Shown one piece after another: positions 26,717 through 52,722 of a stretch of DNA of 64,000 bases. Numbering within the stretch: the first letter of the stretch is position 1; each line of letters starts with the position of its first letter. Below the pieces are notes generated by a model that saw only the letters and a list, made by a program, of their open reading frames with translations, was not told where the DNA came from and did not search any database. Where the stretch lies: assembly GCA_002633005.1 (NCBI GenBank), contig NMRA01000116.1:404474-468473 (forward strand). The letters are read 5' to 3'. The DNA comes from Phoronis australis (Eukaryota; Animalia; Phoronida). Both the position numbers and the translations under genes were made by a program.

Positions 26717-29700
26717 ATGAAAGTTCCTAAGAAAGTGAGATATTTGGATAAAGTTTTCATATTCGTGTTTGTTTTCTCGGTCGCGAAGGGTGACAGTAAC
26801 CAGACGAACTCTGTCCGAATTGGATTACTCATCCCATGGGAAAGAACAGAGTACGGTGTCGAAGGACGGGTTTCCGCTGGAGCCGTCTCTGTTGCAGTCG
26901 AAGACTTTAAGTCTTTGAATTTGTTGCCCGGATATAACGTGAGCATTGAATGGCGAGATACCGCTTGCAAATGGCGACAGGCCGCCAAGAATGCAATAGA
27001 TCTTCACCAGTTGGGTGCAGATGTCCTGATAGGACCGGTTTGTCCGGAAGGCAAGTATTAATTAAAACTTTGATGAAGCCTGTTATGCTGGATAATGCAT
27101 AATGCTCGTCAGCGTGCGTGTTTGGTCTCTAAGATTGTATTCAAATCCTTCGATTATTTCCTACACCAGAAAGCAAAATTTACCATAGGAAGGGGGTTGA
27201 TTTTGCAATTGGAATAAATATTGACCCTGTTTCGAATCAAATTAAATGTGAAACTGCATTTATAAGAGTAGGTGATTTGCGTTATAACTTGCATCCTAGA
27301 GAAAACATTTTGCTGTGCTATTCTATGTACAGTGTGTACGTCACACGGATAATCTTGCGTTATCAACATATACCAAAAAATGCAATGATTCAAGGATCAC
27401 ACTAAACAGCAGATAAAACACACTTAAAAGGAGAGTCAAACTTGGGAACTTGTGTCATAACAAATATGGAAATAACGTAGCCGTTACCCAATGGTCAAGA
27501 TCAAGATTTTGGTCCACGTTCAATCTCAAACTATTCTTCTGATGAATTTTTAGAAATGATTAGTGCAGGGTACAAAAACTGTGTCTCTCAAACTAATTCT
27601 TCCATTGAATTGTTATTGGATAAATATACGAGTTGGAAAACTAATAATTAAGGAGCTAAGGGAATTGAATACATCGATTGATTGGACAATATTAGACTTG
27701 CACGTGTGTGATTGGACAATATTAGACTTGCACGTGTGTGATTGGACAATATTAGACTTGCGTGTGTGATCACGGCGGTAGTTACTGCATGCTACAGAAC
27801 TACAGAGTATTTAATGACTTAAAGTCATGCAGTTAAGAATTTAAAGTTTATCATCGAATTAGGACATTCGGCAGTTTAGCAAGTCAAACTAAATTGTGTA
27901 CGGCGTTATCACCAATGAATTAGTTCCCGTCACCAGTTAGAAAAGAGACCCACCTTTAAATACCTTAAGTTATTAACTTCTCTATAACGACAGTGACAGG
28001 AATTTATTACTTGGAATTTTCTCGCTACTAGACTTACGCAAAGTTGATGATGTATGAGCTGGTCACTGTATCAACATGTTGATAAGGTTTTTAATGAACT
28101 GTGGTCACTGTGTACATTTGACTCCTCAGTGTTATCAACATTATCATTTGACCATTATTAATATTAGTTATTTCTAATTCGAATTTTCGTAATAACTAGT
28201 TGAACGAATTAAATGAATTGACCTCATCCTCAAGATCGTCATCATTATTGCGAGGAATTAGTATTTCACTGCTGATTTTCCATCTTTCTCGTTTACTGAT
28301 TTGCATACTGTCTTTGTTGTGGTGTAACACCACGCGGATCCGGGGGGGGAGAGGTCATGGCAGGATACGATCGAAACAAACGTCGCCGATATGCCTTTTT
28401 AGGGGTCAGGACATTTCCTTCGGAAATTGAGACAGACCCACCTCTTGAGGCATCCTAAATACACCAGAGGGGTACGAGAACTCAGGAAAAACGGGTTTCT
28501 GGATAAAATGGCCATTAAATATTTTTTCATAACATATATTTGTCGTAGGCAAAACGCAGTTTTAATTACACTGGTGCTTTTAATATAGTTTCTCGATTTT
28601 GACCTATTTCAATGACATTTGTGATGTTGGTGTACTAGCACTCATAAACAAAATTCGTTGAACAACATTTGTCAACTTGACAAGTTTGAAGCTGCTATAA
28701 GCTATTTTTTGTTTCAGACCACAAACAGTTATGAAATTGGTCTCAACGAGTTTCTTACTGAGTTTTCACCTGTTTATTTCACCTAGCAGACAATACATAA
28801 AATAATACATGCGCCTGATCGCAAACTGCAGACTTTAAAAGCAGACAGTGGCCAAGAACAGAAAGCTCATCATTGCTTCAACAGTTTAGTTTGTCACGGT
28901 GGCTCACTTTATGCGACGAGCGTGGTCTGGAGCAATAACGTTCTTTCCAAGCCTATACGTGACTTCCCACCTACTGTAAGTAAGGAACAGTGCGAGACCG
29001 GAACTGCGTTCCGTAGATGTAGGAATCTCGCGAAAACACAAAACTTCGCGAGATGCCGCCATGCATCACAACACAATCACACTAGCTTTTGTTGCGAGTG
29101 TCTTAGGTCTCGGAAGTGGCCTAATTGGAAAGTTCATTTCTCCGTGACGGAACGCGGGTTTCAGTCACAGCTTTAATGGCAGAACAATCTTCCAATCTCT
29201 AAAGGTGGCATGTTCTCGGTGATTACGGTCTTGAAAAGTTCACCAATTTTCATACCAGATGAGTACAACAGTTTGAAGTCAAGCATATCATGGATTGACT
29301 CATTGTTCCTCAAACGTTGTTGTTCAACGAAAACTGAATCAAAATGCCGAATATATTGGACAGGCCCTGCTGAACACTGCAACCCAATGGATAACAATAT
29401 AAGGCGGAGACAGTGCAGACAAGATGGACGCCTTTCGTGAAAGTAACGGAGAAAATTTAGTTGCCCAGGAGTAAAAATTGAAGTAGTACTGACGATAAAT
29501 GCTGAAATGATTTCAATTTCACCAGTACACGAACCAGCTCGTTACATTATAACGAAGTACCACAAAGTGCGAGCGAATAAACTTGCTGATTAATGGCCCA
29601 AAATATCTGTCTCGAGGAGATTAAAAAACCCACTATTCGTCTATAATATCCCTGCAGAAAAACGCGTACAAAACGTAGCCGGTGAGTGTTATGGTGAAAA

Positions 29701-32406
29701 CCTTTCTGTGCATACTGTATGCTAGTCTAGTCTGCACTCGACCCGCTCTTAAGCTTATCACTTTTTGGGTAAACAAAGGCGTTCTCAATATTTCTATCAG
29801 TCAATAATCTATGTAACAAATATGAGAAAATCGCTTCTTATCACTTTTGTGACTGAAAAGCGAGGTCTACGATTAAGATAAAGTGTATTGTCACACCAAC
29901 CGGTATGAGGAAGAATTATGAAATCGCTAACCTTGGATAGGAATCAGTAAAGTTCAAACACAACGTTCGTAAAGCACGAATCTTGTACAATAAGGTAACG
30001 TGAAGAATAGCAGGGCTATGGATGCAAATCGCAATTAATTAGCGTGCCGAAGACCTTCATTATTTCAATGAATAATAGATTCTGAGGTACGTAGTCATCA
30101 GCATGCATTTTTCAGGAGCTGAAGCTATTTCATAAATGAATTTAATTTTTTACGTTTTTCGACAAAACGTTTACAGTCTGCGTTTGATAGGTGACAATAT
30201 CAACTACACACGACTCAAGCAAGACATTACTGGCTTTATAACCATCACATGGTCTAGACCCGGGGTCACATGTCTGAGCTAGAACTCCAAATTATTTTTT
30301 GATGTTTTCTTGTCATCTGCACTTCTAACTTAAGATAAGCGCCTATGATAGTGTGCAGAAATACATTGTAGTTAACATGGGTGAATGCTTACCTCACAGC
30401 CACTTCATGGGCACACCCGGAGGGGGGGGGGTGGGGGGCTCGAATGAGCCCCCAAATTTGGTGAATTGAGCAAAAGGTCCGCCTCAGTGAAACAACAAGT
30501 CCGAGTAAACGAGAAAAAGTCCACAAAATCCACGGGAAGTCGGCGCGGATACACAATTCCTGGCCCCGCTTTTTTAGTCCTCGTTGATTTCTTTCAGTAA
30601 AAGGTCCGCATAGCGAAAAATTCGAGCCCCCTATATTTTAGGCTGGGTGCGCGCATGCAGTAGTAGGACGACAAGATTGTACATTTAGTCACACGTCTAC
30701 AAAACTATATATGTATCTGAAAGAGAAGAAATTACATAAAACTGGATTTTTGACTTTATATTATTCTGTCATTTATTAGATCACGACGATGCTTTTTAAT
30801 AAAATGTAGTGAAAAAGAAAGGTACGTTCATAGCAAAACAACAGAATCCATAACATGAGGAAATTTTTTATCATACGATAAAATCTCAAAACCGCTGTTA
30901 CAGATTTTTTTCATACAAAGTCCTATTTTTGATAGCCCTTCATGTTCGATGATTAGACTCTTGATAGCGCAAGTATTACTGTCATAAGGAAAACACCAAT
31001 CGAAGTGTCTTTTAACTGGAAAAATAAGAAACTATCTACTATTCATCACCGCGATTTGAGTTTCCATGTGCGAGACTCGTGTTTGGGGGCAGGGCTTTGT
31101 GTTTGAAGGTAGGAAACTTATTCGTATTCTAGGTACGAGATTTGTAGTTTTGGGGTTTATACTCGCTCCGAGTTTGAAGGTAACATATGTTTATTCGCAT
31201 CTAATGAGTTACAAACCCTGGCAGCAAACTACAACGTCGACATAGCCGACCTCCACGTCGACATCTTCAACCACCACGTGCCAGCAGTGAATTCTCCTTT
31301 TCACGTGCTGCGATATAAACAACTCATAGTCAGGGCCTCAGATAAGATCCACATCACAAATTGTACCCATGAGTTTGAAGTTCATCAACATAGCGCCTGT
31401 CGTAGTTAATTGGTAGGGTCTTGAGCATGCATTCACTCGAATGTTATCTTTGAGCTTGCCATTCATGGGAATCAAGACCTTGTTTTACGAAGATTATACA
31501 TTGAACTCATAGGTACCCAAGGAACATGAGAAGCTTCTAGGCTTCTACTGTGACTGTGCTTTAGGTTTTCTAGACACGCAGTCCAGATTGTAATTCTTTA
31601 AAGATTTATTTCACTTTAATTTATCATTCCTTGGTTTGGACATGCTGCGGAACTGGCAATGCCAAGAAGCTTGAAAGAGTTCCACACAGGGTTCTCAAAT
31701 TCGTTCAGTGATTGTAATTCTAGTTATGCTTGTTTACAAGTGAAAGCAGGGCTTCCAACACTTGATTTTATTGAACATACTTAGGCCACGCCCACCATAG
31801 TTACAGTTGCAATGTCCGACAAACTTAAAGCAAATATGATAGAAATCCTTTGCGTACGTACTACAACACTAGCGATTCTTTACGAAATGTATCGACGACA
31901 TATCATTGAAACTGCTAGTGAGTAGGAACCAGATATGGTCCAGGGGTAAAATTAAAAGGTTACAAATGTGTTTCCTGCCGAATAACGCAGGTTGATGGTT
32001 ATTTTTGGATAGGATTGTCATCTTGAAATTATTAACTTTGGCAGAGGTATTAAACAGCAAAAGTTGTTTTATTTTTGTGATTTTATTGTAAATCACCGAC
32101 CACTAACAAAGGCTTCCAGTCAAAGTTAACTCTGAAATTGATCGACGCCAGCTGATCAAAGCCGGTTTGAAAAGGCCAAGAGTTATATCTCCTGGGTGTG
32201 CGTGAGAAAAAGAAGCGACGAATCGAAGCACTTTGGAAAATTTACTTCTCTGGAATAAGTCTTTGGGAACAAGATCTCGCGCTGTGCTGGCGTGTGAGAC
32301 GAGATGAACATTTCCAGAAATGCCGAGCTTGCTCGTGTAGCCAGCCGTGTGGGTTTACACTCCTCTCCCGTCTTCCAGAAATAGATTTCCTTTAATTATA
32401 ATAATA

Positions 32407-32465
<59 letters not shown>

Positions 32466-35400
32466 ACAAATAGATAAAAACAGAGTAGGTGTCTTTCCAG
32501 ACGCGTTAGAAACCAACATATACTTATAAATACAACAATCACAATTACTATGGAATCCCTTACATCAACAGGAAGCACTATTAACACGTTTTTCTGGAAC
32601 AAACTAGCATGCGGTCTTGGCAATCAATCGCAAATCTCTCACACTGTTAACTGACATCAAGGAGAAAAACCTTTCCACGTCATTAAATGAAGTAAAGTTG
32701 ACATTCAGTCAATTAAACAAGTCTGATCTGATTCATGCTTACTTTTGATTGGTTTTAAACGTAAACCTAAAACTGTTTTTGAAAACCTTATAATGTTTCA
32801 ACCATAGACATCTAAAATAGATGTCTATGATTTCAAGTCTGAATCCTTCGTTGAGCCTCAAAAATTTTCGAGTGTTCTCGGTCAGTTGGCACCATAATTA
32901 TACAAAACCGGCTTTCCTAAATTACCAAATCCACTGTGAAAATCCTGAGCGCTTCTCTTTGTATTGACCATCTTTCGAAAGATTATTATTTTATGTTTAT
33001 TTTTTATTTTACACTCATATTTCTAAATCGTATCAGTCATAATAAATGACCTTTATCTCGCCTATATGCCGTCTCCTTTTTATCTCTGGAAACGGAGCTT
33101 GCGACGCACCTATCGTTTTCGGGACATACGTCGAACATAAATAACCCCATCAATTACAAATGCTTATGCAGATTGTTTGGAGTCACGTGTTCTTGGACAC
33201 CATGCCTGAACTCAAAAATTGCGAATAAGACGGTGCCTGAAAGTCACGTGGTTCAACAGTCAACAGTGTCGTGGGTCACTGGTGTCAGAGATTTTAAAAG
33301 AAATACACAAAGTACTTTTGACGAAAATGCTCTGAATAAGGTTCTGTTGTACTTAATTTATGCTTTTTATCCAAACTTTATCGTGGCCAACTGTAGCGCT
33401 CAAACTGTGTGGAAATACGGCATTTGTGTCGATTATCTTGTAATAGGCCTCTTCTCATTTAATGGATCCCAGCTCTATTTCTAGCCGTGAAAGCTGTGGC
33501 CATGTTGGCTTCAGTTTGGACCACCCCTATTGTCACGTGGTTTGGACCAGGAGAACCAATGCAGTACAACAGCTTTTCAACAATGGCGAGAATGTTCGGA
33601 TCGTCGAGCAAACTGACTTCAGCCTTCATGTTGCTTCTACAGTATTTTGACTGGAAAATAATTGGCAAGATTATTTTTATTTAATTCATTTAAAGGGTAA
33701 CGCGTCATAATAAATACAACACCAAAACAATAATTAACGCGAGTAAAAAGACTACTGGCTATTTCTAATGAGTGAAACTTTAGATCTTATTTTACTGAGA
33801 GACCATTGTCCTCATTCTAGACACAGTTCTTAAAACCGTAAAGTCATATTCAGCGCCTTCTTTAAAAACCTGAAGTTGTCTGACAACCCGTAGAAAATTT
33901 TGTAGTACGGGTCTGAATGTTGCTACACTCTGTAGCAAGTTAGGTTCCCTGTACGTTTCTAACTGTCAAGTTTTGTATTTATTTAAGTTTGTAGACGCAA
34001 TACAAAACACGTTCACAAGCTACTTTAGAACCATTAGGCACCTAATGTTAACGACCAATGTGGTCCACTGGTCTTCAGTTGGTGATAGCCGTGAGTTTGT
34101 TCCCCGTGCTTGCAAGAGAGAGGCGCCGAGTGAAGCCATAGGCTATGAAGCGTGCTTTTTACCATGAAACATAGTAGCACTCGCAGTAGTACTTAAATAG
34201 ACCAGAGAGATTATACTAATCTATTGTTTATTGACTACTTGTTATTGTGGCAACAGGTATTATCATGAAGCAGAACGATCCGTGCCAAGCTGTCGTGAAC
34301 GCCATCTTACGAGAGAATGGCACTGTTACAGTCGGTAGAGTAGAGAGGTATAACGACTTTTCGCCGCACGTAACGCACATGCTGACAAACATTCAGGATC
34401 ACTCAAGAGGTAGGGGTTTTTATAGTCAGATACTTTTTTGTGGAAAATGTGCCAAGCTAGATTTCTCTGAGGCATGTCATTTATTTTTTCAAAATCTTGC
34501 GTCTTTGCTGTCTTGTATTTTTACAATGTTGTATTTCTATGATAACGTCACATTGAAATTGGCCAATATCGCAAGTGACCGTATTTTCAACGAGTAGAAA
34601 GTTACTTTCTCAAAAAGGACGAATTTACTTGATACCATTAGGAGTATATCATCAACATGTTACATGATCACTGTCTGGCCGGGATTTTGCGAGATTATCA
34701 TGTTATAATTTTCGTACTTTTCAATACGTGATTACCCTAATTATACATGACGTAACTGAGGATGTGTTCACGTTTTACCCTGTAGTTGTGTTTCTGTGCA
34801 TGCCAAAGGAAGATGTGCGCACGCTTCTTTTGGAAGCCAAGGTTCAAGACATGACGTCAGAGGAATACATGTATATCGCTTACGAAATGCCACTGACAAA
34901 CCCAACTGACGGGTTAGTTGAATCTTCGGAGGACGTCGAGTCAACTTTACCTAATTTATTGACCATTGGAGAGATGAGTGACGTCAGCAATGGAGTGAAG
35001 GTTGAGTTTGAACGCAGAGTCAAAGATCAAGTAAAGAGAAACCCATTTAATACAAGGTTAACGCCCGAAGACAAGGTAATAAACGTGAACCATTTACACA
35101 TTCACATACAGATGACAAGCTTCACAGTATAAGTAAAACAGTAAAAGATAGTGATATTTCTTCACACTAACTGTCGGACTAGATCTATTTTATTTACAAA
35201 AGTGAATGTGCATTTTTGCGACAAGCAATATATATAAATTAAATTATACTCGACCATGTATTTCTTAGTCATTAAACTTTGTTTTTCTTTATACAGGAAA
35301 CTTGCCGATCCCGCTTTTCAAATTACAGAACTTTGCGTCTGTATCACGGTATTTGTGTAGAAAGTTTTAATTATTCTTTCACACATTTTTATTTCAGTCA

Positions 35401-38400
35401 TTTGTACTGTTTCTAGGTGGATGAATATGCCCATTACTTGTATAACGCCGTGCTTCTTTACGGATACGCCGCAAACAATTCCGTGGCACAAGGAAACCTG
35501 TCGTCCAAACTCACTTTGACTTCATTCAAAAGTATGTGGTAACTAAGTTATCATTAATATTTGATATATTAGATTAACTACTATTAATATTTAACATATT
35601 AGATTAATTAGCTATTTTATCTTATTAAGATAAAATAGCTAATTAAATATATCATGCATTACCTTGCATGGATCTTGGATAAAAATGCTTTGCAGATCTG
35701 TGTTAGGGATTGTCAAAGAAATTTTCGAAATTGAATGTCTCGTGAAAAAGATCAACGCTACGTAACAAGATAATGTATAGACTATTATTACGACTTTGCT
35801 TGACTTTTTAGCTTTGGTTGGCACGTCCATTCGCATCGACGAGAAAGGAGACCGCATTCCCAAATATGCCATAAAACATTTTCAAAAGGGCGCTTGGCAG
35901 ACTGTGGCTACCATTACTGACAATGTGTTCGTTAATAAACGCGACATCCTTTGGCCAGGAGGACAAGAAAGTGCACCTAAAGATATCCCTCCATGTGGTT
36001 TTAAAGGCGACAGGTGTCCTGGTATGTTTATAAGAATAAATTGATCTGTGCGTTCCAAGACCGACCTACCGATTTCACCTCAAATACTGAGCAACGGCTT
36101 GACTGACAGCAGACGTTTTTTTATTGTACCAAGTCGCACAGACTTGTACAAACGGCACTTAGTAGGCGTGACACACCAACCTCTACAAAGTTCTATTAGA
36201 AGGCGTGTCCCAAGAATTGTGGAGGATAGGGTTGGGCACCGGCTTCCGGGGCCGGTACTTTGCCCAAAAACGAACGAAAAATACCGCTACCGAAACGAAA
36301 AGTACTCGGTGCAAAAATCGATACCTTGAAAAATGAAAGAGTGGCGGATTTAGAGGGGGTCCAAGGGGGCCATGGCCCCTCTAAAATTTTCCCAGATTCC
36401 ATTTGGCATTTCGGCATGTTCGAATGTCTGTCCGGCAAAATCCTGGGTAATACCCTGACCTGCCCCCCCCCCTCCAACTCAAAATCCTGGACCCACCCCT
36501 GGAAAGTGTGGCTGATTTATTTCCATGTTTTATTTTCCAATGCAGTCAACTATAACGTGAAACAAACCCAGTGTGGAGAAAAACTCAAGTCAGTAAACAA
36601 ACCCTGAATCTCTTGCCGACTACGTTCCTCAATCACATAGTTATTTGGCGATGAGACAGTCAAAAACCATAGCTCCAGCCCAGTAAGTATCAAAAGTTGT
36701 ACCCGACATCATTCTCAATCCTCAGTCTGAAATTTGAGGCTATGACAAAAATATCCGAGGTCTTGAGACTGAGATAGGTCGTGACGGAGGCTGGATTGTC
36801 TTTATAAACAGTACTATACTAAAGTGTTAAGCATGGTAATGACAAACAGTGTCTTTTCATAATAGTTGGAAAATGTGGTTGGCCGGCACCGACAAGATAT
36901 GGGTGGCGTTATGTGGCGATCTATGAAACAATAATAGCCGTGGAAAAGAAAAACGTGTCAGTCACAAGTCAGGAACACTAATTAATGTAACAACGAGTTA
37001 GATTCTGAAGCCTTCCTCATGATGTTCACGTGGTCATATTTCGTTCCAGGAGCGATTATTGCCATTGTACTGTCTTCAATAATAACCGTGATCCTGCTGG
37101 CTATTGGTTTGGTTATATGCAGGTATGAAACTGTGTTGTACTTCGCCCTCTCTAGTTCTCTCTCGACGTATTTCGAGCTCTTAATGAAGATACCAAACCG
37201 GCAGCTGATCACGTACTCACAAAAATGATCATTGTTGTTTCACGAGACTGACTTATTTTTTAATGGAAGTCTGCCGTGCGCCATTTTCGAATTTCTGGGT
37301 TGGCAAACCGCAAAATACTGTCGACTTTCCGACCCATTTCTTGACCTGTTGAGGGTTTGTATGTTCTTCTTAGTAAAAATGTCCTATCATGGCAAGGAAA
37401 ATTTGGAAACCGACTTTATAAGAGTAAAAGGCCAAATGCGATTTTCGTTTTTAGCTATATGAGCTAATCAGGGCGAAATACAGCTTTAATATTTCACAAC
37501 TAAACTATTACGCAATAGCACGATTTGGATGAAAATTAAACGACATCTAGACAACGAAATTGTATTTATTGTATCTCTAAATATGTAAATATGTACATTT
37601 GTGATATTTTGACGCCCAGATATTATGCTTTCTGGGCTCAATTCTTATTATTGTACATTATATTCTTTGTAATAATCATTATGTAAAAAACATGTTAGAT
37701 GTGTATCAATATAAAAACAGTCTCAGTATTTGCCTTATATCGCTCGATGAATATCTTCGACATGATGCATTCTACCTGAACGTATCACCACTCATTGACG
37801 GTAGATCCCAATGCTTGAATGAATAAATATTTAGGCGTATGTTTATCACCTTAGACGAAAGCAGCAAAAAAGAAGTGCCAAAAAGAATGCCTGGCTCGTA
37901 GACTATAGTGAGATTAGATTTCGTAAGCAGCGTGTGACTAGTTCTGCTGATCGGCCCATCACTCCTGGATCCGCCACCGGGCCTCACCCAAGAAAGAAAT
38001 TAGTGAGAACTGTAAGTATCCCTCACGGTTATCTACTTTGACATTATACCCACCTATGTTAAGTTGCCATTTAGTTACTATGTATCGTTTCATCTAGATA
38101 GGTGCGTGCCGGCATTGCCGAATCTGTAATCTGGAATCTTGTAATTTTACACGTATGTTTTACCGTTTTCCCTAAACGCACAATGTTAAACTGTAATAGG
38201 ATATGAGAAATACAACAATTTTCAAATGTATGAAAACTGTTTTTCTCTTGGAATATACTGCAGAACGCTTTTACTGTCGCATGCAATTTTTTTGTAAAAA
38301 TACGTCACGGTAGTTATTACACCATAAAGAATGACGTAACAAATACTCATTCGTAAATTATTATACACGTGATTATTCATGACAGAACAAGATTGCTATT

Positions 38401-41400
38401 TTGGTTAGTGGAGGTGTAGGGCCTCACACAAATAGTTGGGATGATTACAAACAAAAAAGATATCCTGAAGAGGACGAATGAGAGACTCAAACTGTACATA
38501 GCCCAGGAGCGAGCGAAAAACAGAATTGAAGAATTACGAGAGGCACTTAGAGACGTCATTCCGGATGAGAATGAGTATGAATCGGCAGACGACCGTTACC
38601 AGATGGTATCCGCAAGAGACGAATTAACTCCGTCTGCATATTCTGAGGATGCCGAAAAACGGTCACAACAAAACAAAAATTCAAGTAACAACAATGCACA
38701 TTTGAGTGCCAGTCGAGAGCCACAAAGAGACATCATCCTGCACGAGGATGAGACGCATAACAGCAATACAAATTGTTCGAGTGGTCGTCAAGAGTCACAA
38801 AGTAATACCAACCCGGACGACATAAAGTTGGGAGGGGATTTTGACGGGGTGGAGACTAAAAGTAACGCCTCACCTCCTCCTGGTTGCTTTGGTGACGCCG
38901 AAAAAGGGATATTATGTAAGAGGGCAACATGTAAGAATAACAACCAGGAACCACATAGAGACATCCTGTTGAGAGGCAACAGTCACGAGGTCAAGAGTAA
39001 CGAGTCACCTCTACCTGGATGTTCTGTTGTTGGCAAAAAACGAACAAAACAAAAGCGACCTTTCCGTAACAACCGTGTCCATTGTTTGAACGTTAGTCAA
39101 GAGCCACATAGAATCACCACACCGCGAAACTTCGATAGTTTGGAATGTCACGAATACGAGGGCTTAGCTGAGGATGGCGAGTTATCACCGCCTGCATCCT
39201 CTGGACATTCCAATGGATGTGAAGATAATAGCAATCTGAACTCCGCGATGAGCCTGAGATCGCTTACAGACGGTACTCTACATATGTTCCCGGAAGAAGT
39301 TACAGAAACTCGATTCTTGCCAGTACCTGGTATGAGCGAGGACGCAGATGGCTTAGACCGACAAGGCGATATCCAAAAGTTATCAGTTTTTCAAAGAGCA
39401 TTTCGTAAAGTGAAATCAGTATTTACTATGAAAAAACGTAGCAGAAACAACATAAATTGGTATGGATATGAACCTGATTTTTCCTTTCCAACTTTCAAAA
39501 CGTCACCGCTACACAATCTGTCAGACTTTCCTATTAACGTTGGTGAGACTGTTGTTCACGACCCCATGAGTTACAATTACGTTTATCGTGACGGAAAGCC
39601 CGTCCTCATTGATCGAGGGAATTATGGCTGTATGTTTCTAGTTGAGCGACAGAAGATGTTTTACGCCCTAAAAGTATTTTGTAAAGAATCGTCATCTTTT
39701 TATGAGGTCAGGAGAGAGGTTGAAATGTTCCAATTTGTCAATGAGAAAGGAATCGGGCCTCAACTTCGAGGGGTTTTCCCGTTAGAGGAAAACGCGATTC
39801 ACTATTCGTGGGGAATTTTATTTGACATAGCAGGAAACAATAGCTGCAGAGGGAAAACACTTCGTGAACTTCTTAGCGAATACAAGAAGGAAAAGCCTGG
39901 ATTTACTCGGCTGAGGGATCAAGACTGGCTTGACATCTTGATCACAATATGTGAACAAATTAATGCTCTAAACAGAGCAGGCGTTGTGCTGAGAGCCATG
40001 AATCCGGACAGCATTGTAGTTATCAAAGTTAATGGTGTGTACAAGGCGCAGTTTTTGGACGTTCGAGACGCAACGCTGTTGAAGGAAAATCCTTGTACAA
40101 CTCACTACGGCGACTTTATTAAGGTGTGCGAGCTCATGGGTCTTATCAACTGGGAGACCCAATCTAACAAGAGATTCCACGATGCGTCCCAACTGATATC
40201 TCAGGGATCAGAGAAAGCTCATTGGGAACATGTCATCGAGGCCCTGAGGACGGAAAGGAGCGCCACCTGTTCTCTCTTTAAAAAGTGGTTTCTTTGTCGG
40301 AAACAGTAGTAACTCTCCCCTACAATGCAAGTTTGGCATGAATGTGTCGAAGCCTAGTCTTGGCATTATGTCTACCGCAAAACATCGGATCCGCGCACAC
40401 CGGACTTTTCGAAGCGCCTGATCGACCACAGCAACGGACGATAAACCTGAATTTCGAACGCACCGTAGTTTAGACATTTATGTGGCCAACTTGTAAAGTT
40501 GCTGATGTGGTGCCGATGGCATACATATGACTGTCTTCTGACTGGGCTGGAGTATTTACAGCCATTACCACAAATTTGATCTAATATTGATAAGACTTTC
40601 TTTGACTTGCTTTAATTTTTCGATATTAATAAAAGTCGGCCAATGGTACTTATCCAGTTGTAATTATTTATTTATGAAGTATTTATTCCTCTTTTAGCCC
40701 CTATACGGAAAGCAGTATTTTTGAAAAGAGAGTGTATTACAACGGTAATGGCAGTGCCATCAGTCGCCTCTTCATGGATTTTTCTCTTAATAAGTTTTAC
40801 GGGGTTTAAACTCCGCAATATGTTTTCTAAAGAATTGAATTTGAGGTAACGACTCCCTGGGTTCAACTTAATTATTATGTTGTAATAAACACCAAAAACT
40901 GTTGCATAACATTTTGTATAGTTCTCTATTCTTCAGCAAAACTGGTCCTCTTCCTAGCTCATGAAGTAGACACTTAGGAAGGTGTTTTCACTCATAGGGA
41001 TACATTTTCAGCTTATAATTCAGAGAAGTCACCCCCAAGTTAATAAGTCCATGCGATATGGCTGTGAAAAACACACATTTGAAGTGTAGGTCCCTTGCGT
41101 GCCTCTTAAATGAGTATCCACTTGTCGCCAGCAAAAATTTAGAAAATTCACTCCGCCACGCAGCGTACACGTACATGCCATAACGCGCATTGGAATACAA
41201 CTGGTTCAATCAGGTTGCGTTGCGATAGCACTCCAAAGCATTTAGGGCGATCGCATCAACGGTGATTTTCCGGGTTAAAGAACGTCAGTAAAACTGCCTG
41301 CCTCTGTGTTCAAACCGTATTTAAGATTTTTTTTGTTTGAGAAAACCTGCAAAAGGGGTGTAATGATATAAAATATGCATAGTTTCGACTCGCGTAGTTG

Positions 41401-44400
41401 AGAAGCACGCATAACAGTCAAAATTTATGTACATATTTTTTTTGTAATAAGAATAATCATCAGTGTGGCTTTGCGAGAAGGGTAATTAGTAGTGCTGTCT
41501 GCTTTTTATCTAAAATAAAAGCTTTTTACGTCGTTTTTGCAAGACAGTTACACGTTTTAAGAGGCCTCCTATTGGTGGTTGAGGCAACCGAGAACAGGCA
41601 AATAGGACGAAGTGCAGTTCGTATAATGCTTCGTAAGTTACCTAAAACTACTGGGAGGTAAGATTTTTTACTTTGGATTATGAAGTGGTTATGAATGACT
41701 AAACAAACTGTTACAAGGTCAGTTTTTGAAAAGGTGCAATATGGCTGCTAAAAAGTGCCAAAGTTGGCCGAAAATAGCTGCAGTGAAAACCTGCAAAATA
41801 GCCGTTTTTGCCACACAAAATCAAAACATACAAATTTTTAAAACAAATTTTGAAAGATATGACATTAAATTATTCAATCACAGTCCTTTAATACCGTATC
41901 ACTCATTTGTTATCAGCTTACTATACATGCTAGTAAAACGCATTAAAACATGTCTACTTCGGCGCCCAATTTCGTAGGTGCATGTCACAAAAAGAGAAAT
42001 ACTGGATGAAAATTCTTAAAAAGCAATTTTTTTTTACATCTCACCAAATCAAACTCATGTGCTAAGTCTTAAAAAAAATCTGCGATTTTGGGTATAGGTT
42101 CTACCTGTTGGTTTTTACATGGAGTCGCTCTTATCTTTTGATTTAGGCCACTTATAGTTACATCCCGACCCAAATTGAAGTGATTTCTGGACTTGGAAAA
42201 GACCTACAGTTCGTTTAGTGCTTGAGATTAGGCTCGAAATGTCGACGTGCCACGGGAATCATTTTAATAGCTAAGTAAAGTCTCAGGGAAAAACAAACTG
42301 CCAGCTCCTTCCAAGCCCAGTAGTCTACGTCCCATCTGAATAAGCCCAATGCTGAGACCAATGTTACATAGCAATAATATTGACTTGAATAAAATGTCCG
42401 TTTGTTGTCGGAACACGCGCTTAGGACATTTTTAATATCAATTTTTTTTTCTTCCAGTCAACTCGTGCAACGTTAGGCTTAGGTTCTTTGTGTAGTTTAG
42501 ACAAGACACAGCAAATTTTTGCCTCGATTGCGCATTATAGGGTAAGTACAGTTCTAAATCAAACAATTTCGTGAAGTAATTTGACCAGTGACAATTCCGC
42601 TAATCTATGTCGTTTTAACTGTTTGTGAAACTAAGAAAGTTAAGCACTAAACATTTGACCTAAGTTTGTTTTTATCAAAGTTACGAGATACGAAGGGTTG
42701 ACATATTTCATCATTATCGCCATGTTGCCATTCCCGCTTCCCCGATTTTTTGGCCGTTACCCGATTCCTGGCGTCAAATTCGTTTCGATCTCAGTACCAA
42801 TAAATCTCCATTCCCTAAATACGGCATTTTTGTCTATATTTCCGTTATCACGGCCACACAAAGGGCCCGACCACGATTCCCGAAAAAAGTGTTTTCCCTC
42901 TTAGACTATTGGTTTCTATAAGCCAACGCTCGCTGTACGTGTTTATTCTCCCTGGATCGTTTTCTAGGGAAATGTTCATTTTTCTATCTATGTTGTGTCA
43001 TTTTCTTCTTCGTTACTGTAGGCTAAAATTGTAGCGGTGAAGAAACTTAAACGGGGGTCATTAAAAATGACCCGACAAGCTGACAAGGACTTCCGTTGCT
43101 TACGAGAATTGCACCACGAGAACTTGAACCCATTCATAGGGGTCGCTGTCAACGAGAACAATCCATGTGTTCTCCTACTGTATTGCTCTAAAGGCAGCCT
43201 TCAGGACGTATTGGAGAATGATGATATTAACCTGGACTGGATGTTCAAGATGTCTTTTACAACAGACTTAGCAAAAGTAAGTCAAAGTACCCCCAAAATA
43301 CATGTAAAATGAGTGAAACGTACAAATAAAACAGTTCGTGGTTCACGGGTTGGACAGAATGTCACTGCAATTTTTATGATAATTCTATTTTATTAGCTGC
43401 GAATCGAAAGTAAATCGCTTATCCCATAAACGCTACAACAAAAACAATGCAGATCCCCCTTAATAACAGTGTTACACGAATGCTGCATATCTTTCAGGGA
43501 ATGGAGTATTTACATAAAAGCGCAATTCGTTCTCATGGCAATTTGAAGTCGACAAATTGCGTTATAGACAATAGATGGGTGCTTAAAGTTACTGACTACG
43601 GGTTATTAACGGAGTACATTGACAAGCGAGAAGATGAGATGGGCGACCACGCATATTATACCAGTGAGTTACTTTGAGTAAATTAATGGCTGACTCCAGA
43701 CCGATGAGAAAACATTTGGAAATTAAATGCCACATAGTGTGCAGAAGTAATAAAATTCTTTTCAAAATGTTGACAGCATGTCTTCTCAAAATTATGTTGA
43801 CACTCACAAACTTCCTTATTCCACAAAATAAATATCCTGTTGATCTTCTAGCAACTGAGTCACTTCTTGTTCGAACTTACAAAAAAATGTCGGAAGACCA
43901 GAAAGTTTACCGTATTAAACGCATATCGTAGAAATCGCAGCAGAGGTCCACTGTCTAACAAATGTCTGCAAAAAGTGAATGTTCTTATCACAGGCTTACT
44001 ATGGACAGCCCCTGAACTTTTGAGAGAGAAAAAGCCAGTCGAGCGTGGGACTCAAAAGGGTGATGTTTACAGTTTCGCTATCGTCTTTTATGAAATCATG
44101 CAACGTGCCAGTCCCTATCAGTATAACGACCGATCTCCAGACGGTAGGTTTCAACCCGCTGATAACAGAAAAAGACTAGAATGCTACAAATGGGAATTTT
44201 TATTTAACGTACTTCTTTGAAGAAAATTTTTTCTTAGATTAACTGTAATTCATTCTGATGCACTACCTTATGACAACACTTTTAAATATTTAAACTGCAT
44301 CGCAATAAGTACGATTCTAAAGTAATTTAGTTAAATTTTAGATAAATCAGTGCGTCAAGATTTATATAACGCTCAGAAATGTTCTACTGTGATCTCTAAT

Positions 44401-47400
44401 GAAATTATAGAATACATTAAACATTGACATTACGGAAAATTCGATATAGTAAATATATAAACGCTGATGTTGGTCAATGGTGAAATATATCAAATAAACA
44501 CAGAAAAATCAGGAACTACAGCCGGGGGTTCTTGGTTTTTCCGTAAAAATTATTTAAGTATTAAATTATTTTATGTAAGCTATACTGCCTCCTCCTCATT
44601 ATCATATTGTTTGGATTCTCTGGTCAGTGACCCTCTTTGTTTTACGATTATTGGTTTAATTGTACCACGTGATCTCTTTGTCTTGTTGCAACACTGGGCC
44701 ATCGTCCACAATTCTCTCCAACTTTCATTTTTCACTCAATTTCTCTTCAATTTCCCACCTTTACAGTGCAATATGTTATATAACTTTTGTAATTACTGAT
44801 ATCTGTAGTAGTTTAGTTTGTCATAATATATATGACCTTTTATCTCAACTACATGTGTTGTTTCACTGTAAACTAGCTTCGGTATCGCTTCGCAGTTAGC
44901 GCATATAAAATTCGATGACTAATAACCGGTATAGCATATTTGTGCGAAAATGCCCGAGTGCACACTGGTTTTGAATTTTCTCAGACGTCGTGGCGGAACT
45001 ATTAGACGGATGCCTACCCCACTGCCGTCCCGTCATCTTGCCAGACGCCGACACTACGCGCGATGACGTCAGACACTTGATGAGAATCTGCTGGGAAGAA
45101 GAACCTGAGGATAGGCCAGATTTCTCAGAAATCAGACGAAAACTGCGGTTTATTAACGGCGGAAAGTAAGCAATGTTTTTGATTACAGTCCATTTATCTT
45201 TATGTACTATTTTTAGGCAGAGACACACTGCCATACTGCGTTACCACCAATGATTGATAAAGCCATTTCGTATGATGTGAGACAAGATAGATAGTTTTTG
45301 AATTTTTGGAAAATAAATATTAAGGATGTCTAAAGTCTTATCATTTCGAAATCAAATCTGCGTACTATGCTCAAACTGTTTCTGATTTTGTGTAGTTCTG
45401 AATTTTATTTGTTTTTAAAAACACGTAGCAACACAATTTTAACCGTCATAGAATTTGATGATTTTTAGCATGTTAAAATATTTGCTCAAATTATCATCAT
45501 CATCATCATCTTCATCGTTATTATTAGTACCTTTATTTTTAATTTATTTTATTTTTAATTTATTTAATATCAGTGGCGTCTTTGGGGGGGGGGCAAGGGG
45601 GCCATGGCCCCCCTAAAATTCTCCCAGATGCCATTTGGCAGTTCCTGTGCCCTGCCCCCAACTCAAAATCCTGGATCCGCCCTTAAATATCATATAATTA
45701 TTGACTGAGGTCATTATCACATTTTTGGGGTCCGAAAATCAAAATATTAACGAGTGTGAAAGTGAATACAGGTTTTATTATATGATTACATCCGCTAGGT
45801 AATTCGTGGAAGGTGACTATGGTCGTATCTAGAGCACTTGGTCGGCCAATTAGCTTAGCCTACCCGTTTTCTATCCAAAACGTTGTGGAGAGGTTTTGAA
45901 AAACTTCCAGATGTTTGGAATTTACAAAGGAGCAATCGATTATATTTTGGGAATTATATCATGTTTTGGGGTCTTTCAAAGTTCGCTTTTAATGTAAAAC
46001 AATCGACAAAAGCCATTTGGTTACGCTATGAGATCGCAAGGGGGCGTCAACACGCTCATAGTGCAAGCGCTGAAATTCCCACAAATGACGTGTATTGAAA
46101 GACAGTGAAAAAGTTTAACCTTTGAAAACACACCTTCTGTAAAATGGCAGAATGGTGAGGACTGCGATGCCTTGATGCAGGTATGCATTCACCTGACGGT
46201 TAACATTTTACGGTAATTCAAAAACAAAAATAACCTCAGACTCCGAATAAAATAAAAAGGCTCAAAAGATTTTCGTGTTCGATGACGTTAGCTGGTGACA
46301 AAGTGGTTAGGTTGAGGTTTGAGAATTGAGAGGGACCGGGATCGAAAAAAGTCTTAAACAAAATGTGAAACGGTGTTACCATAGTAACGGTAAATATTAC
46401 GATTTATTGACTCCGCAATACTGATTTGTAATTCCATAATCTGTCCAATGTAGCTGAGATGGATAGTGATTCTAATAAATCAGTCTTAGATGGCCAAACG
46501 CACGTTTAATATCCCTGTTGCAGAAAAATGTAGGACAATCAGTGTTTAGGTTTATCAGATTCTAATACGTTTCGTATTTCTGTAACAGAAAAATTAACAT
46601 AGTTGACAACATGATCAAGATGATGGAGGCGTATACGGAGAACTTGGAGGAGCTGGTAGCAGAACGGACAGAAGAATTGGAGATGGAGAAGGAGAAGACG
46701 GACATGTTACTCTTCAGGTAAACAGTGGGCAAATAATGGCATTAGTTCGAGAAGAACGTCATTTAGCATTCCTTGAACTGCTGAGGAATGTGACCACAGT
46801 TGAGTATGAGCGACATTGTTAGAAATGGTAATTCATGCACTGTGCACTAAGATCATACTTCGTTCAGTGTATGTTAATAAGTTTTAAAAAGCGTAATTTT
46901 TGCCTCTCGGTGAGCAAATATGACATCTTTAGAAAAAAGTACCACCTTAAGTTTGTTTTGTCACGGCGGGTTTGTTTCTGTCGCCAAAGCAATGTGGCCA
47001 TGAAGAGAATCCCAGGCATTTTATTGCAATTGTTTTCAGTTCAAAGTAAGGATGATAACAAAACAGCATTGCTTTGGAAGCGCAAATACCCCTATGAAGA
47101 AAGATGTCACAAGAGCGTGGTTTAGTACACGCTTTAATGTAACAGTGTCAAATAGCAGATAAATTGACGTTGATGGTAACATGAAACAGTGAAAGCAAAT
47201 TAACTGATGTTGACAGAAAACAATATACTTCCGTTTCTCACTAGTCAGTGGAGTGATTCACAAAGCCCACCGAAACAAGTTTGCGATGGCATCACGGGTC
47301 AAGACTGGAACTGTATATCTAACCAGCTTTGTAAAAAAGATACGTGGCTTGCTGCAAATTATTTCTCTAAATGAACGAATCCAAAACACGTATTGCTGCT

Positions 47401-50400
47401 TTTCAGAATGTTACCCCCTTGTGTTGCCGAGCAGTTGAAGAGAGGTGAGCCAGTGATACCGGAGACCTACGATGCCGTCTCGATATTCTTCTCCGATATT
47501 GTTGGCTTCACATCAATCTCCGCCAAAAGCTCTCCCTTGCAGGTAAGTTTCGAAAGTGAACGAAGACAGGTAAAGAAAAGATAAAACCTGGGGAAACACC
47601 GATTCCTTTACAAATATCAGTTTGGATTCAGTCAGAACAGAAAGACCACAATATAGATTGTACAGCTACGACGTAGGCAGAATTTTAGCCTATGAAATAA
47701 AAAGAAAGAACTCTACAAAACCACGTATCACACTAACTAGACAATAACATCTTTGATTTTCAGGTAGTCGACCTACTGAATGACCTATATACCTGCTTTG
47801 ACGAAATAATAGCTCAACATGACGTTTATAAGGTAAGAAAATGTCCATAATGAAGAAGTGAGAAATGGTTTACCAGTCATTCAACTTCAAAATTGTTTCT
47901 GTAAAGAAAAAAATCCGATTTCTACAAATTAATGTACCCCTAATAATTCTCTTTAACTAGGTGGAAACAATTGGTGACGCGTACATGTGCGTGAGTGGTC
48001 TTCCTCAGCGAAACGGCGATCGCCATGCAGGTGAAATAGCCAACATGGCGTTGGATCTCCTCAGCGCTGTGACCAACTTCAAAATCAGACACATGTCAGA
48101 TCAGCACTTGCAGCTTAGGGTTGGCCTGCATACGGGACCCTGTGTGGCGGGCGTCGTCGGGGTAACCATGCCGCGATATTGTCTGTTTGGCGACACAGTC
48201 AACATGGCATCCAGAATGGAATCAACCGGCCTCGGTATGAATTTTTCAAATAATATGACTTTCGAATTGTCCAGATTGAGTTATGTATGAAAAAATAGGT
48301 GAAATGTTGGCCTACAGAGCTAGCGCACGGATGACATGTAATAGCCTATGACGTCATATCGGTTGCAGTTCAATAGTAAAAACTTTAAACTAGAATTATC
48401 CACGCTTATCTAAAAATCAGTTATTGAAAGATAATAATATTACAATGGCTTCGTACTTTTAATAAAAATTCGTTCGCAAAGGATTTATAAAAATTAAGTC
48501 AAAAAGATAGATTTCTGTAAGTTGAGACTTTGTTCATGTTTAAGTCCTCAGTAAAGCTAACATGCTCTCTGGAAGACAATACTTGTTCTTGTGTCAACAA
48601 AAGTGAACGACGGGAAAAATAGTGAAAATGGAAGTATGCGCTAAACATGTTTTTCATGATCAAATTTAGACTGATAATTATGAAGTTGGTTATCTCGACA
48701 TTCGATCATGTGAGTAGAAATGGTTCTTTAATGATATTAACAGTTAAAACTGGTCTGCGGAATTACCTTGTTGGTTTCCTAGATCTTCGGAAACCTCTCG
48801 TCTCCCGTGATGAGTCGCGGGAACGTTGGTCACGTTTTGAAGCAGCGTCGAGATCCCACGTGACCAGAGTTCCCGCAACTCATCACAGTCAACGTCCCAT
48901 CGAAAGAGACGAGAGGTCTCCGAAGATCTAGGAAATCAAAAAAGGTAATCCAACAGACCAGTTCGACTGTTAATATCATGAACATTCCTGGATGGTTCAA
49001 GGTCTACATTTTATTAATGGTTCTTTAAGTATTTCATAATAGAGACCATGTTGTTGGTGTATTTTCCAGCGCTTCATATCCACTTAAGTTCGTCTATTCA
49101 CACAGCTTTGATGAAACTTGATTGGGGTTTTAGGACAGCTATTAGAGGAGAGACAGAAATTAAGGTAATGTTTCAGAGGTGTTTTGTGTGCGTTCAGCTT
49201 GAATAAAAAGTGACATGTAATTACAAAATATATAACATGTTCGTTATGATTAAATTATCATGTTCGAAACATGTAAAATATTTCTGTGACAACAGATATT
49301 GTTGAATATTTTCCTTTTCCTTTAGTTATAAAAAGGGTTGTCTGGGAGCAACATTTATTCAACCGACGTGCCTGCGACAGGAATATCCAGCAACATGACA
49401 TACTTTTCAACTCTTAAGATATTTTTGTTGTGGAGGTACACTGGAAGATTAGGGAAGACAAATAAGGGCATTTCAGACTATTGATCTGGTTTCAGTTTGT
49501 GAAAAAAACCTGTTGAAAAAGAACACCGAACACCTAAAACCAAAATGACGCTGCAAAAATGTACGCAATTTGTAAAGCCATTGTTAAGCCTAAAGAGTGC
49601 CAACAGTCTTTAAACAAAAGCAAACCTCTTTTTAAAGTTAAACTTCAAGATAAACACATGTACGAGTTTATGTGAGCCTATATAGATCCTAAGATTCGTC
49701 ACAACACTCTACGAGCCAATTAATCTTCAAATATAAGTGCATGTGTTTAAATACGCTAATATATGGTAGGCGCGGAAGGAACATTTTTGGACAGAGACAG
49801 CAACTAGGAAAAATGAAAATGGTCACCTTTCTCTCACCAAATGACATTTTTGTAATTATTATAATGTAAGTTTGTTAACACTTTTAAACACTTCAATATT
49901 TCGAGACACTTGTATTTCAGAAAATGTTTAGTCATCTAGTATGTTCCAAGGTGTTTTGTATTGATCTGCCTGAATGGGGGAACTCCAGATAAAAAAGCGG
50001 TCGATACGAGCTTGCATGTTAAGTGTAGCAGGCCTACAAGTAACATGCATTAACGGGAATGTTTACTTACCTTTTTCTAGGAATTTGTGGTGTAAATTTA
50101 TGTTTTACTTACGCCGAAAGACATTTGAACCTTGTAATTCAATTTCAATGAAAATGAAATTATTATTAAATCTGAAGTGTGACGAACTTTGAACAAATGG
50201 CACTGTGTGTCGGAGCATCCTTGTGGTATGTTAGTTTTGTTACTAGTTTCTGGCCTCAGTGTTTAAGTTGTAATTTGTTACACACGTGGCCAGGGCTACG
50301 TTTCATGAACCTATTTTAGTCCTAACTTAGACCGAAATAACAATGCTGTCATTCCATCACTTGTCACGTTGCGCTTGTTGAACAATGCTGTTGACGTCAT

Positions 50401-52681: not shown

Positions 52682-52722
<41 letters not shown>
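52339..52722. repeat. Compound (ATG/GTG)n microsatellite downstream of the cyclase stop codon
   Basis: Direct reading; it accounts for the poly-Met and poly-Ile pseudo-ORFs. Confidence 0.95.

What the first reader, a model, noticed from the sequence alone, without database searches (positions are those of the whole stretch)
38441..40309. Intact 622-aa pseudokinase-like ORF nested on the same strand inside a receptor guanylyl cyclase gene
Seen: an unbroken 1.87-kb ORF with downstream AATAAA signals (40628, 40884) sits in intron 8 (38012-42457). It lies between the juxtamembrane exon and the exons leading to the cyclase's own kinase-homology domain. It has no transposase, RT or terminal repeats that I can see, and its motifs differ from those of the host domain ([11 protein letters not shown]). 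Established: nested genes are more often antisense to their host, and a same-strand poly(A) site within an intron can terminate host transcripts. Inference: this is either a retroposed or captured gene using the host locus, or a module functionally coupled to the receptor.
Basis: partly seen in the sequence, partly recalled or inferred. Interest (0 to 1): 0.75.

Follow-up and report, generated by a model that had tools for sequence, protein, structure and literature searches.

The report
Multi-copy pseudokinase gene inside receptor intron
A real single-exon gene for a predicted catalytically dead kinase sits inside an intron of a receptor guanylyl cyclase gene, but it is one of several diverged copies in this animal's DNA, so it likely landed there by duplication and is likely not a dedicated partner of the receptor.

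Summary
A 622-codon ORF lies sense-strand in intron 8 of a 20-exon receptor guanylyl cyclase; RNA reads confirm the intron. Residues ~376-622 have a predicted protein-kinase fold. The β3 Lys, αC Glu and DFG Asp are kept, but the catalytic Asp is Ala519, so it is a pseudokinase by sequence. It is unrelated to the host's kinase-homology domain and groups with an unnamed family of kinases with an 'NDxKxxN' loop.

DNA contigs show several 80-95% identical copies that share upstream and downstream non-coding DNA but not host exon 8. That points to DNA-level duplication, not retroposition. The family is transcribed sense-strand in 2 of 3 raw RNA runs, mostly from other copies; this copy likely gives 2-3x depth, like the host. 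A diverged expressed copy also has Ala at the catalytic position. No splice into the ORF and no read-through were seen at low depth. Coupling to the receptor is unsupported but not excluded. My look-ups found no earlier scan note or paper on it. A new variant of a known kind; moderate interest.

The parts
38441..40309 (+). Single-exon ORF, 622 aa. M1 is the first in-frame ATG; the frame is open from 38420.
   Evidence: sense RNA coverage in X5 and X6
38441..38580 (+). Charged, likely helical or coiled-coil N-terminal segment (aa 1-46), inferred from composition; not folded
   Evidence: 23 charged of the first 50 aa; homologous open frame in a diverged expressed paralog, table 7, read by eye
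38701..39119 (+). Four degenerate in-frame repeats (spacing 75, 156, 153 nt) in a polar, likely disordered linker
   Evidence: family D1; a paralog carries a net +75 nt unit at 38753, table 5
39566..40306 (+). Pseudokinase domain (aa ~376-622). Gly loop D391-R-G393-N-Y-G396, K411, E426; catalytic loop R518-A519-M-N521-P-D-S524 (Asp, Lys and Asn replaced); D540-V-R; C-terminal ~70 aa divergent and poorly modelled
38110..38440 (+). Upstream DNA shared with paralogs (promoter / 5' UTR). Sharing begins within bin 38057-38175 and rises in 38176-38294; RNA begins about 38280-38400. Includes a 9-codon uORF at 38379 and a 7-nt tandem repeat at 38121-38145.
   Evidence: the left coordinate is an estimate from bin depth
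40310..41250 (+). 3' UTR (AATAAA 40628; RNA falls to 0 in bin 40675-40793; second AATAAA 40884) and downstream flank still shared with paralogs at about 86% identity. The right end of the shared unit was not reached.
   Evidence: tables 2 and 8
38012..42457 (+). Host intron 8, phase 0, 4446 nt
26717..52076 (+). Host receptor guanylyl cyclase, 20 exons, 1263 aa (exon 8 = 37855-38011, exon 9 = 42458-42541)
   Evidence: three junctions seen in RNA; the other junctions are inferred from the open frame

Best explanation
It is an intact single-exon gene for a predicted catalytically dead kinase, one of several diverged copies in this genome, which likely reached this intron by DNA-level duplication together with its own promoter and poly(A) site and likely works as a non-enzymatic binding protein independent of the receptor. 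SHOWN: the ORF; its place in an intron that is spliced out; sense transcription of the family; several 80-95% identical copies sharing non-coding flanks but not host exon 8; Ala in place of the catalytic Asp here and in a diverged expressed copy. PREDICTED: kinase fold; origin from an unnamed 'NDxKxxN' kinase family. INFERRED: transcription of this very copy at about host level; nucleotide binding through K411, E426 and D540 without phosphotransfer; action as a scaffold or decoy, with the N-terminal helix and disordered linker binding partners, most plausibly the substrates or regulators of active kinases of the same family; an incidental nesting that is tolerated because the gene has no splice sites of its own.
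For: Multi-copy: summed DNA contig depth over the ORF is a median 8.0x (X3) and 4.8x (X1) the depth of the single zero-difference contig covering 37700-38318, and about 3x over 40794-41250. 72 of 202 (X1) and 103 of 302 (X3) laid contigs are under 90% alike, and up to 13-14 contigs carry one alternative letter at a site. Own flanks assemble as zero-difference contigs at about single-copy depth (57.2 and 46.6 in X3). Expression: first-mate-minus depth 7-57x over the ORF in X5 and X6, the same orientation as host junction reads, and 0 in bins 38057-38175 and 40675-40793. 35 of 486 and 36 of 452 reads are at least 99% alike; non-paralog letters average 2.7 and 2.8 reads at 25 diagnostic sites, against 1.8-4.1x for host exons 8 and 10. 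Family: 11 proteins at E<=1e-3 among 1.84 billion, all Pkinase. The ORF scores 97.5 bits on a profile built without it, against 75 for the best viral kinase and 10 for the host. Quick tree: ORF plus the 11 family rows, SH-aLRT 99. Fold: pLDDT 64.6, Foldseek E 9e-9, VIA Z 13.7 / rmsd 2.8 / 157 aligned to BRAF. Constraint: 11 of 29 listed kinase-domain differences are synonymous (omega about 0.44-0.55, p 0.03-0.09), 0 stops in 48.
Against: Summed contig depth is, by the tool's own note, no copy number; X1 and X3 are one sample and may be the assembly's source. No genome was held, so paralog positions, dispersal and flanks were not seen. In X5 no window-letter read covers 40208 (0 of 30) or 40252-40373 fully, and 9 of 25 (X5) and 5 of 25 (X6) diagnostic sites have none, so full-length expression of this copy is not proven. 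The N-terminal half looks neutral (4 of 19 synonymous, omega about 1). The whole-ORF test is not significant (p 0.07-0.22), nor is the in-frame indel excess (6 of 10 against 2 of 8, p 0.16), and the variants are the tool's best-supported subset. Some paralogs carry frame-breaking indels. Family rows were picked by similarity to the ORF, the ORF has a long branch (2.61), the tree is the quick one, and it holds no canonical animal kinases. No protein-level or binding evidence. Active family members were not shown in this genome.
Confidence: 0.58

Rival explanations
1. The gene is cargo of a non-autonomous mobile element (Pack-TIR, Helitron/Helentron-like) or of an endogenous DNA virus fragment, spread by transposition, and it serves the element or nothing.
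For: Several copies share about 300 nt upstream and at least 940 nt downstream of the ORF but not host exon 8. The ORF is intronless. A short tandem repeat lies at the left edge and a high-copy repeat follows at about 41550-42133. Multicopy transcribed Pack-TIRs exist in animals (PMC8277862, abstract and outline).
Against: No significant TIR or direct repeat and no Helitron hairpin. No transposase-sized ORF in intron 8. Viral kinases match only at generic level and fall outside the family branch. No relative in viral contigs with the ORF itself or alignment A4, nor in phages. Copies are 5-20% or more diverged yet largely open. The right end of the unit was not reached, so the test is incomplete.
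Confidence: 0.2
2. The ORF is functionally coupled to the receptor: co-expressed from the shared locus, its pseudokinase binds the receptor's kinase-homology domain, or its transcription and poly(A) site cut host transcripts short to give a cyclase-less decoy receptor.
For: Host exons and the family are both covered in X5 and X6 and both uncovered in X7. In-frame read-through of exon 8 stops after 9 codons, which would leave ectodomain plus membrane span. Nested-gene transcription drives host intronic polyadenylation at mouse H13/Mcts2 (PMC13309782, abstract).
Against: Zero depth at 38057-38175 in both runs, so no read-through was seen. Host depth does not fall after intron 8 (exon 8 1.8-1.9x, exon 10 2.6-4.1x; 3' bias could mask a fall). 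The on/off pattern is three runs of one study and covers the whole family, not this copy. Paralogs do not carry host exon 8.
Confidence: 0.08
3. The ORF is an alternative last exon: exon 8 (phase 0) splices to the AG at 38418-38419 and gives a receptor whose cyclase half is swapped for the pseudokinase.
For: The phases match: intron 8 is phase 0 and the frame is open from 38420, right behind an AG. Its pyrimidine count (8 of 18) equals that of some real acceptors in this gene (6-15).
Against: No joint from 38011 into the ORF is listed in either lay, while 38011>42458 has 3+3 reads. The listing threshold is 3 reads and 4 joints were not shown, so a minor isoform is not excluded. RNA covers DNA upstream of 38420. 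The AG is simply the end of the upstream TAG stop.
Confidence: 0.05
4. This copy is a young, not yet decayed duplicate drifting towards a pseudogene, and function lies with other paralogs.
For: Most family RNA is from other copies (414 of 486 reads in X5 and 375 of 452 in X6 are under 95% alike). The window copy has V541 where most reads have F (9 of 12 and 15 of 19) and I463 where paralogs have the family's F. The N-half omega is about 1.
Against: No stop or frameshift in 622 codons despite 5-15% divergence from the nearest copies; a synonymous excess in the kinase domain; near-identical reads are present.
Confidence: 0.07
5. This copy is a retrocopy of a spliced parent mRNA.
For: It is intronless, has AATAAA signals and sits in an intron.
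Against: Paralogs share DNA beyond both transcript ends; no poly(A) tract follows 40628 or 40884; no contig or read joint points to a spliced parent. A retroposed founder of the whole family long ago is not excluded.
Confidence: 0.02

Closest known systems
Unnamed kinase family P0001-P0011 and cluster mates (ENA, JGI, Logan); nearest ESM Atlas cluster for P0010 is eukaryotic, commonest Cnidaria, score 0.99
   Same: Long polar N-terminus plus C-terminal kinase domain; shared G-x-G-x-Y-G, ALK, E, 'P.L.G', 'F[IV]G' and 'W L. I' features; coherent family (leave-one-cluster-out 84-260 bits); cluster mates with equal longest-contig lengths suggest local duplicates.
   Different: Most members keep the NDxKxxN catalytic loop and D[FLM]G (P0002's cluster has lost them in another way). 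The ORF has RAMNPDS and DVR, only 22-36% identity, and a shortened, divergent activation segment and C-lobe. Gene structure and neighbourhood of the relatives could not be seen.
Pseudokinases lacking the HRD aspartate (PSKH2, HER3, JAK2 JH2, EphA10; PMC7586955, passages)
   Same: Kinase fold with loss of the catalytic base while ATP-positioning Lys, Glu and DFG Asp remain.
   Different: No orthology shown; it also loses the loop Lys and Asn and the first Gly-loop glycine; it is multi-copy and single-exon.
Kinase-homology domain of receptor guanylyl cyclases (the host's own)
   Same: Both are pseudokinases without the catalytic Asp, encoded at one locus.
   Different: No sequence relation: best blastp E 2.4; the host scores 10 bits on the family profile and lies outside the family branch.
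Same-strand single-exon nested genes of Drosophila (PMC3814207) and mouse H13/Mcts2 (PMC13309782)
   Same: A single-exon gene lying sense in a host intron, with its own transcript ends.
   Different: No host truncation is seen here; tissue is unknown; DNA-level rather than RNA-level origin is inferred.
Toxoplasma ROP5 pseudokinase cluster (recalled, from no call)
   Same: Works-like analogy only: an expanded, polymorphic pseudokinase derived from a lineage-specific active kinase family.
   Different: No homology tested, no signal peptide or membrane span here (maximum hydropathy 1.3), and no partner is known.

Membership tests
Protein kinase fold (ePK-like) | Bilobal fold with β1-β5, αC, catalytic-loop and DFG strands | tested here: met
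   AF2 with 24 rows, pLDDT mostly 70-85 over ORF aa ~373-543; Foldseek at least 500 kinase hits at E<=1e-3; VIA Z 14.3/rmsd 4.7/214 aligned and Z 13.7/2.8/157. The model leans on kinase rows in the alignment; the single-sequence model failed. Independent support: phmmer STK16 E 0.003, Atlas 0.97.
Active protein kinase | β3 Lys and αC Glu | tested here: met
   K411 and E426 are invariant columns in A1
Active protein kinase | Catalytic-loop Asp (HRDxxxxN) | tested here: not met
   A519 for Asp, N521 for Lys, S524 for Asn; a diverged paralog also has Ala (15 reads, table 7, read by eye)
Active protein kinase | DFG Asp | tested here: met
   D540-V-R; most laid reads encode D-F (40061 G>T)
Active protein kinase | APE motif and F-helix Asp | tested here: inconclusive
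   Region aligns poorly and has pLDDT under 50
Pseudokinase (sequence definition) | Kinase fold lacking at least one of the three catalytic residues | tested here: met
   Rows above; canonical motifs from PMC7586955 Table 1 (passages)
Pseudokinase (biochemical) | No phosphotransfer; nucleotide binding class | not testable with these tools
   Needs recombinant protein
Unnamed NDxKxxN kinase family | Scores above generic kinases on the family profile and groups with it | tested here: met
   97.5 bits against at most 75; SH-aLRT 99 in a quick tree with selection bias and a long branch
Unnamed NDxKxxN kinase family | NDxKxxN loop itself | tested here: not met
   RAMNPDS: a derived offshoot, not a typical member
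Receptor guanylyl cyclase KHD duplicate | Similarity to the host KHD | tested here: not met
Processed retrocopy | Similarity limited to the mRNA, poly(A) tail, target-site duplication | tested here: not met
   Shared DNA beyond both RNA ends; no A-tail
Pack-TIR / Helitron cargo | Shared termini (TIR plus TSD, or 5' TC and 3' hairpin-CTRR) | tested here: inconclusive
   None found in one copy; paralog ends and the right boundary were not seen
Endogenous viral element | Closest relatives viral; viral neighbours | tested here: inconclusive
   Only generic viral kinase matches; no other long ORF in the intron; neighbours of paralogs and relatives not seen
Nested gene with its own transcript | Transcript wholly inside a spliced host intron | tested here: met
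   Family RNA about 38280-40650 with empty bins on both sides; host junction spans it; assignment of reads to this copy is likely, not proven

The most novel reading that the evidence does not exclude
An undescribed, mobile, intronless kinase family of marine invertebrates has spawned an expressed pseudokinase clade, and one copy was recruited inside a receptor guanylyl cyclase gene, where it is co-expressed and tunes the receptor, either as a trans-acting stand-in for its kinase-homology domain or as a swap-in last exon at the in-frame acceptor 38420 that turns a cGMP receptor into a receptor pseudokinase.
Probability: 0.1. Interest if true: 0.75.

Novelty: new variant of a known kind. Interest (0 to 1): 0.36.

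Why it matters
The nesting itself is ordinary. The better lead is the family: a coherent, unnamed group of kinases with long polar N-termini, from which this animal derived several expressed pseudokinases that keep Ala at the catalytic base over more than 20% DNA divergence. Multi-copy, fast-evolving, sample-restricted pseudokinases are candidates for germline or immune conflict, and the set gives a natural kinase-to-pseudokinase series. If the receptor coupling were true, it would be a new way of regulating or re-wiring a receptor guanylyl cyclase.

Tried and rejected
No whole genome held, so no genome-wide count. Word-seeded protein searches found nothing with the ORF (0 of 1587 and 0 of 655 candidates at E<=0.01); the alignment search gave only 2 generic kinases of 7997 scored; longer and shorter length classes were not searched. 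Single-sequence AF2 gave pLDDT 43 and no Foldseek match. Pfam gave only Choline_kinase below cut-off. The search for related loci: ORF against viral and metagenome contigs, none confirmed of 3 and of 28 stretches; A1 had no conserved stretch; A4 none of 600; A3 gave 49 viral and 2 metagenome loci, and the best-scoring ones were generic kinases. Phages none. Rfam none at E<=0.1. No indexed holder run was on record as RNA, and X8 contigs covered only repeats: no evidence either way. The first host model had exon 8 in the wrong frame, so its protein and blastp are void; one search had exon 20 off by 2; one search is the corrected model. The careful tree did not finish; the quick one is quoted. 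A bHLH reading of aa 10-46 was considered by eye and dropped (no Pfam hit). No complex prediction was run. Paper searches listed nothing on this family or on a gene nested in a receptor guanylyl cyclase (four returned 0 papers; listings only were seen for the rest). No supplements were read.
Full report
OBSERVATION. The ORF runs from ATG 38441 to TAG 40307-40309 (622 aa) and is open from 38420; chance expectation is about 1e-18. A 20-exon host model, 26717-52076, reads 1263 aa with one terminal stop. It has ANF_receptor, kinase-homology and cyclase exons and HGNLKSTN / DYG at 646 / 666. Exon 8 is 37855-38011. Intron 8 (38012-42457, phase 0) is spliced out in 3 reads each of X5 and X6. AATAAA lies at 40628 and 40884.

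THE PROTEIN. Residues 1-46 are charged and probably helical, and about 50-300 are polar and poor in hydrophobic residues. The linker holds four in-frame degenerate repeats. There is no membrane span. The C-terminal domain is below Pfam cut-offs but hits STK16 weakly (E 0.003) and kinase clusters in the ESM Atlas (0.97). HMMER over 1.84 billion representatives returned 11 proteins at E<=1e-3 (22-36% identity), all Pfam kinases. One carries a generic name; the 10 looked up come from ENA (8), Logan (1) and JGI (1). Several share the layout of a long polar N-terminus and a C-terminal kinase, and most have an NDxKxxN catalytic loop. They form a coherent family (84-260 bits when their own cluster is left out). 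The Atlas neighbour of one member is a eukaryotic, mostly cnidarian cluster. On a profile built without it the ORF scores 97.5 bits, the best of the fetched viral kinases 75 and the host protein 10. A quick tree of 37 rows joins the ORF to the 11 family rows at SH-aLRT 99, apart from 22 viral rows, 2 JGI rows and the host domain. Caveats: the family rows were chosen by likeness to the ORF, its branch is long, and no canonical animal kinase was included. AF2 on the 24-row alignment gives pLDDT 64.6 overall, high over the N-lobe and catalytic core and under 50 after about aa 548. Foldseek and VIA-align return only protein kinases, with no family standing out. Motifs: first Gly-loop Gly replaced by D391, G393 and G396 kept; K411 and E426 kept; catalytic Asp, Lys and Asn replaced by A519, N521 and S524; D540 kept, followed by V-R. 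By the usual sequence criteria (PMC7586955, passages incl. Table 1) this is a pseudokinase that may still hold nucleotide (inference).

IT IS MULTI-COPY. Laying contigs of two DNA runs (one sample) at 80% likeness on 37700-41250 shows one zero-difference contig over 37700-38318 (depth 12.5 in X1, 57.2 in X3), with nothing else over exon 8. Extra contigs start in bin 38057-38175 and pile up from 38176. Median summed depth over the ORF is 4.8x and 8.0x the flank, and about 3x over 40794-41250. 72 of 202 and 103 of 302 contigs are under 90% alike, and up to 13-14 contigs carry one alternative letter at a site. Summed depth is not a copy number, but two alleles cannot give this. I estimate several loci, roughly 3-8. 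The copies share about 300 nt upstream of the ATG and, at about 86% identity, DNA to at least 41200-41240, some 550 nt past the main RNA end and about 300 nt past the second AATAAA. No A-tail follows either signal. So the unit was copied as DNA with its promoter and terminator, independently of the host gene (inference). No terminal repeats, Helitron hairpin or transposase ORF were found, but the right end of the unit lies at or beyond the laid stretch, and no genome was held.

EXPRESSION. In X5 and X6 (about 18-19% of each run read) the ORF is covered in the same orientation as the host junction reads, from about 38280-38400 to about 40650, with empty bins on both sides. This is a discrete transcript, not host pre-mRNA. 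X7 covers neither the ORF nor host exons, only repeats; I did not lay a housekeeping control for X7. Most reads come from other copies: X5 has 35 / 37 / 101 / 313 and X6 36 / 41 / 94 / 281 reads at 99+ / 95-99 / 90-95 / under 90%; a few of the best reads belong to exon 8. I tallied 29 of the 40 printed variant rows (28 in the ORF, one in the 3' UTR); 11 were left out, mostly neighbours of included sites. 25 were diagnostic in DNA. Reads without the paralog letter average 2.7 and 2.8 (an upper bound, since third letters count), with none at 9 and 5 of the 25 sites; host exons 8 and 10 run at 1.8-4.1x. This copy is therefore likely expressed at about host level, but in X5 all 30 reads at 40208 differ from it, so full-length expression is unproven.

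SELECTION. Of 48 listed coding differences (over 1000 more were not shown), none makes a stop. In aa 376-622, 11 of 29 are synonymous (omega about 0.44-0.55, p 0.03-0.09); in aa 1-375, 4 of 19 (omega about 1). In-frame indels are 6 of 10 in coding against 2 of 8 in non-coding DNA (p 0.16). Loose ends of more distant expressed copies, read by eye table 7, stay in open homologous frames. One (15 reads) has Ala at the catalytic-Asp position while keeping the loop Asn, and most laid reads encode Phe at 541. Loss of the catalytic base is therefore shared within the clade and not a lesion of this copy. The evidence for constraint is suggestive, not strong.

RELATION TO THE HOST. A fusion is possible on paper: intron 8 is phase 0 and an AG at 38418-38419 is in frame. 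But no such joint is listed in either lay (threshold 3 reads, against 3+3 for the normal junction; 4 joints not shown). There is no read-through into 38057-38175, and host depth does not drop after intron 8. The shared on/off pattern in three runs of one study is the only pointer to coupling. Same-strand single-exon nested genes are a common class: 71.27% of Drosophila nested genes are opposite-strand, 72.53% of same-strand ones are single-exon, and 58.46% of those same-strand genes peak in testis (PMC3814207, passages). Host truncation by nested transcription is a known mechanism (PMC13309782, abstract and outline) that these data do not show here. Tissue is unknown; a germline role is only a guess from that paper and from recalled sperm receptor cyclases.

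MECHANISM, COMMITTED. A lineage-specific offshoot of an unnamed kinase family lost its catalytic base and multiplied by DNA-level duplication. One copy settled in intron 8, where a splice-site-free gene does little harm. It is likely transcribed from its own promoter and likely acts, as its paralogs would, as a nucleotide-binding scaffold or decoy (confidence 0.58). Rivals: mobile-element or viral cargo 0.20; coupling to the receptor in trans or by truncation 0.08; decaying duplicate 0.07; alternative last exon 0.05; retrocopy 0.02.

KNOWN VERSUS NEW. It works like other pseudokinases that lack the catalytic Asp, and it sits like other same-strand nested genes. It is not a duplicate of the host domain and not a member of a named kinase family that I could identify. 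Paper searches (listings only; four were empty) and scan look-ups showed nothing on the family or the locus; the library lacks most subscription papers and no supplements were read. PMC8277862 was seen as abstract and outline. Verdict: real, a new variant of a known kind, interest 0.36.

Noticed in passing
window 27051 and 33665: The first two introns of the host cyclase gene both appear to use GC-AG donors (open frame in the model); not tested with RNA.
   Followed up: partly
window 39485-39722 and 39128-39365: Opposite-orientation RNA reads (up to 36x) on short segments, with loose ends: a diverged paralog seems to be transcribed antisense or sits inside another transcript.
   Followed up: no
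window 38441-38443: A diverged expressed paralog (31+15 reads) has ACG in place of this ATG within an otherwise homologous frame, so the family's start codon may differ between copies (table 7, read by eye).
   Followed up: no
window 38379-38408: A 9-codon upstream ORF just before the main ATG, inside or at the edge of the 5' UTR.
   Followed up: no
window 36340-36502 and about 41550-42133: High-copy repeats present in RNA of X5, X6 and X7 on both strands and in X8 contigs; the second may bound the duplicated unit on the right.
   Followed up: partly
window 54301-55917 (+): Single-exon MFS_1 transporter ORF of about 535 aa just downstream of the host gene.
   Followed up: partly
window 16184-16987 (+): 267-aa single ORF with no Pfam hit at E<=0.001, close to a minus-strand gene (8078-15820) whose last large exon has a BTB domain.
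   Followed up: partly
window 52306-52720: Long degenerate GAT/GGT trinucleotide tract after the host stop codon.
   Followed up: no
P0002, P0016, P0017: A second, independent catalytically altered branch in the same unnamed family (NGLNLxN loop, no DFG Asp).
   Followed up: no
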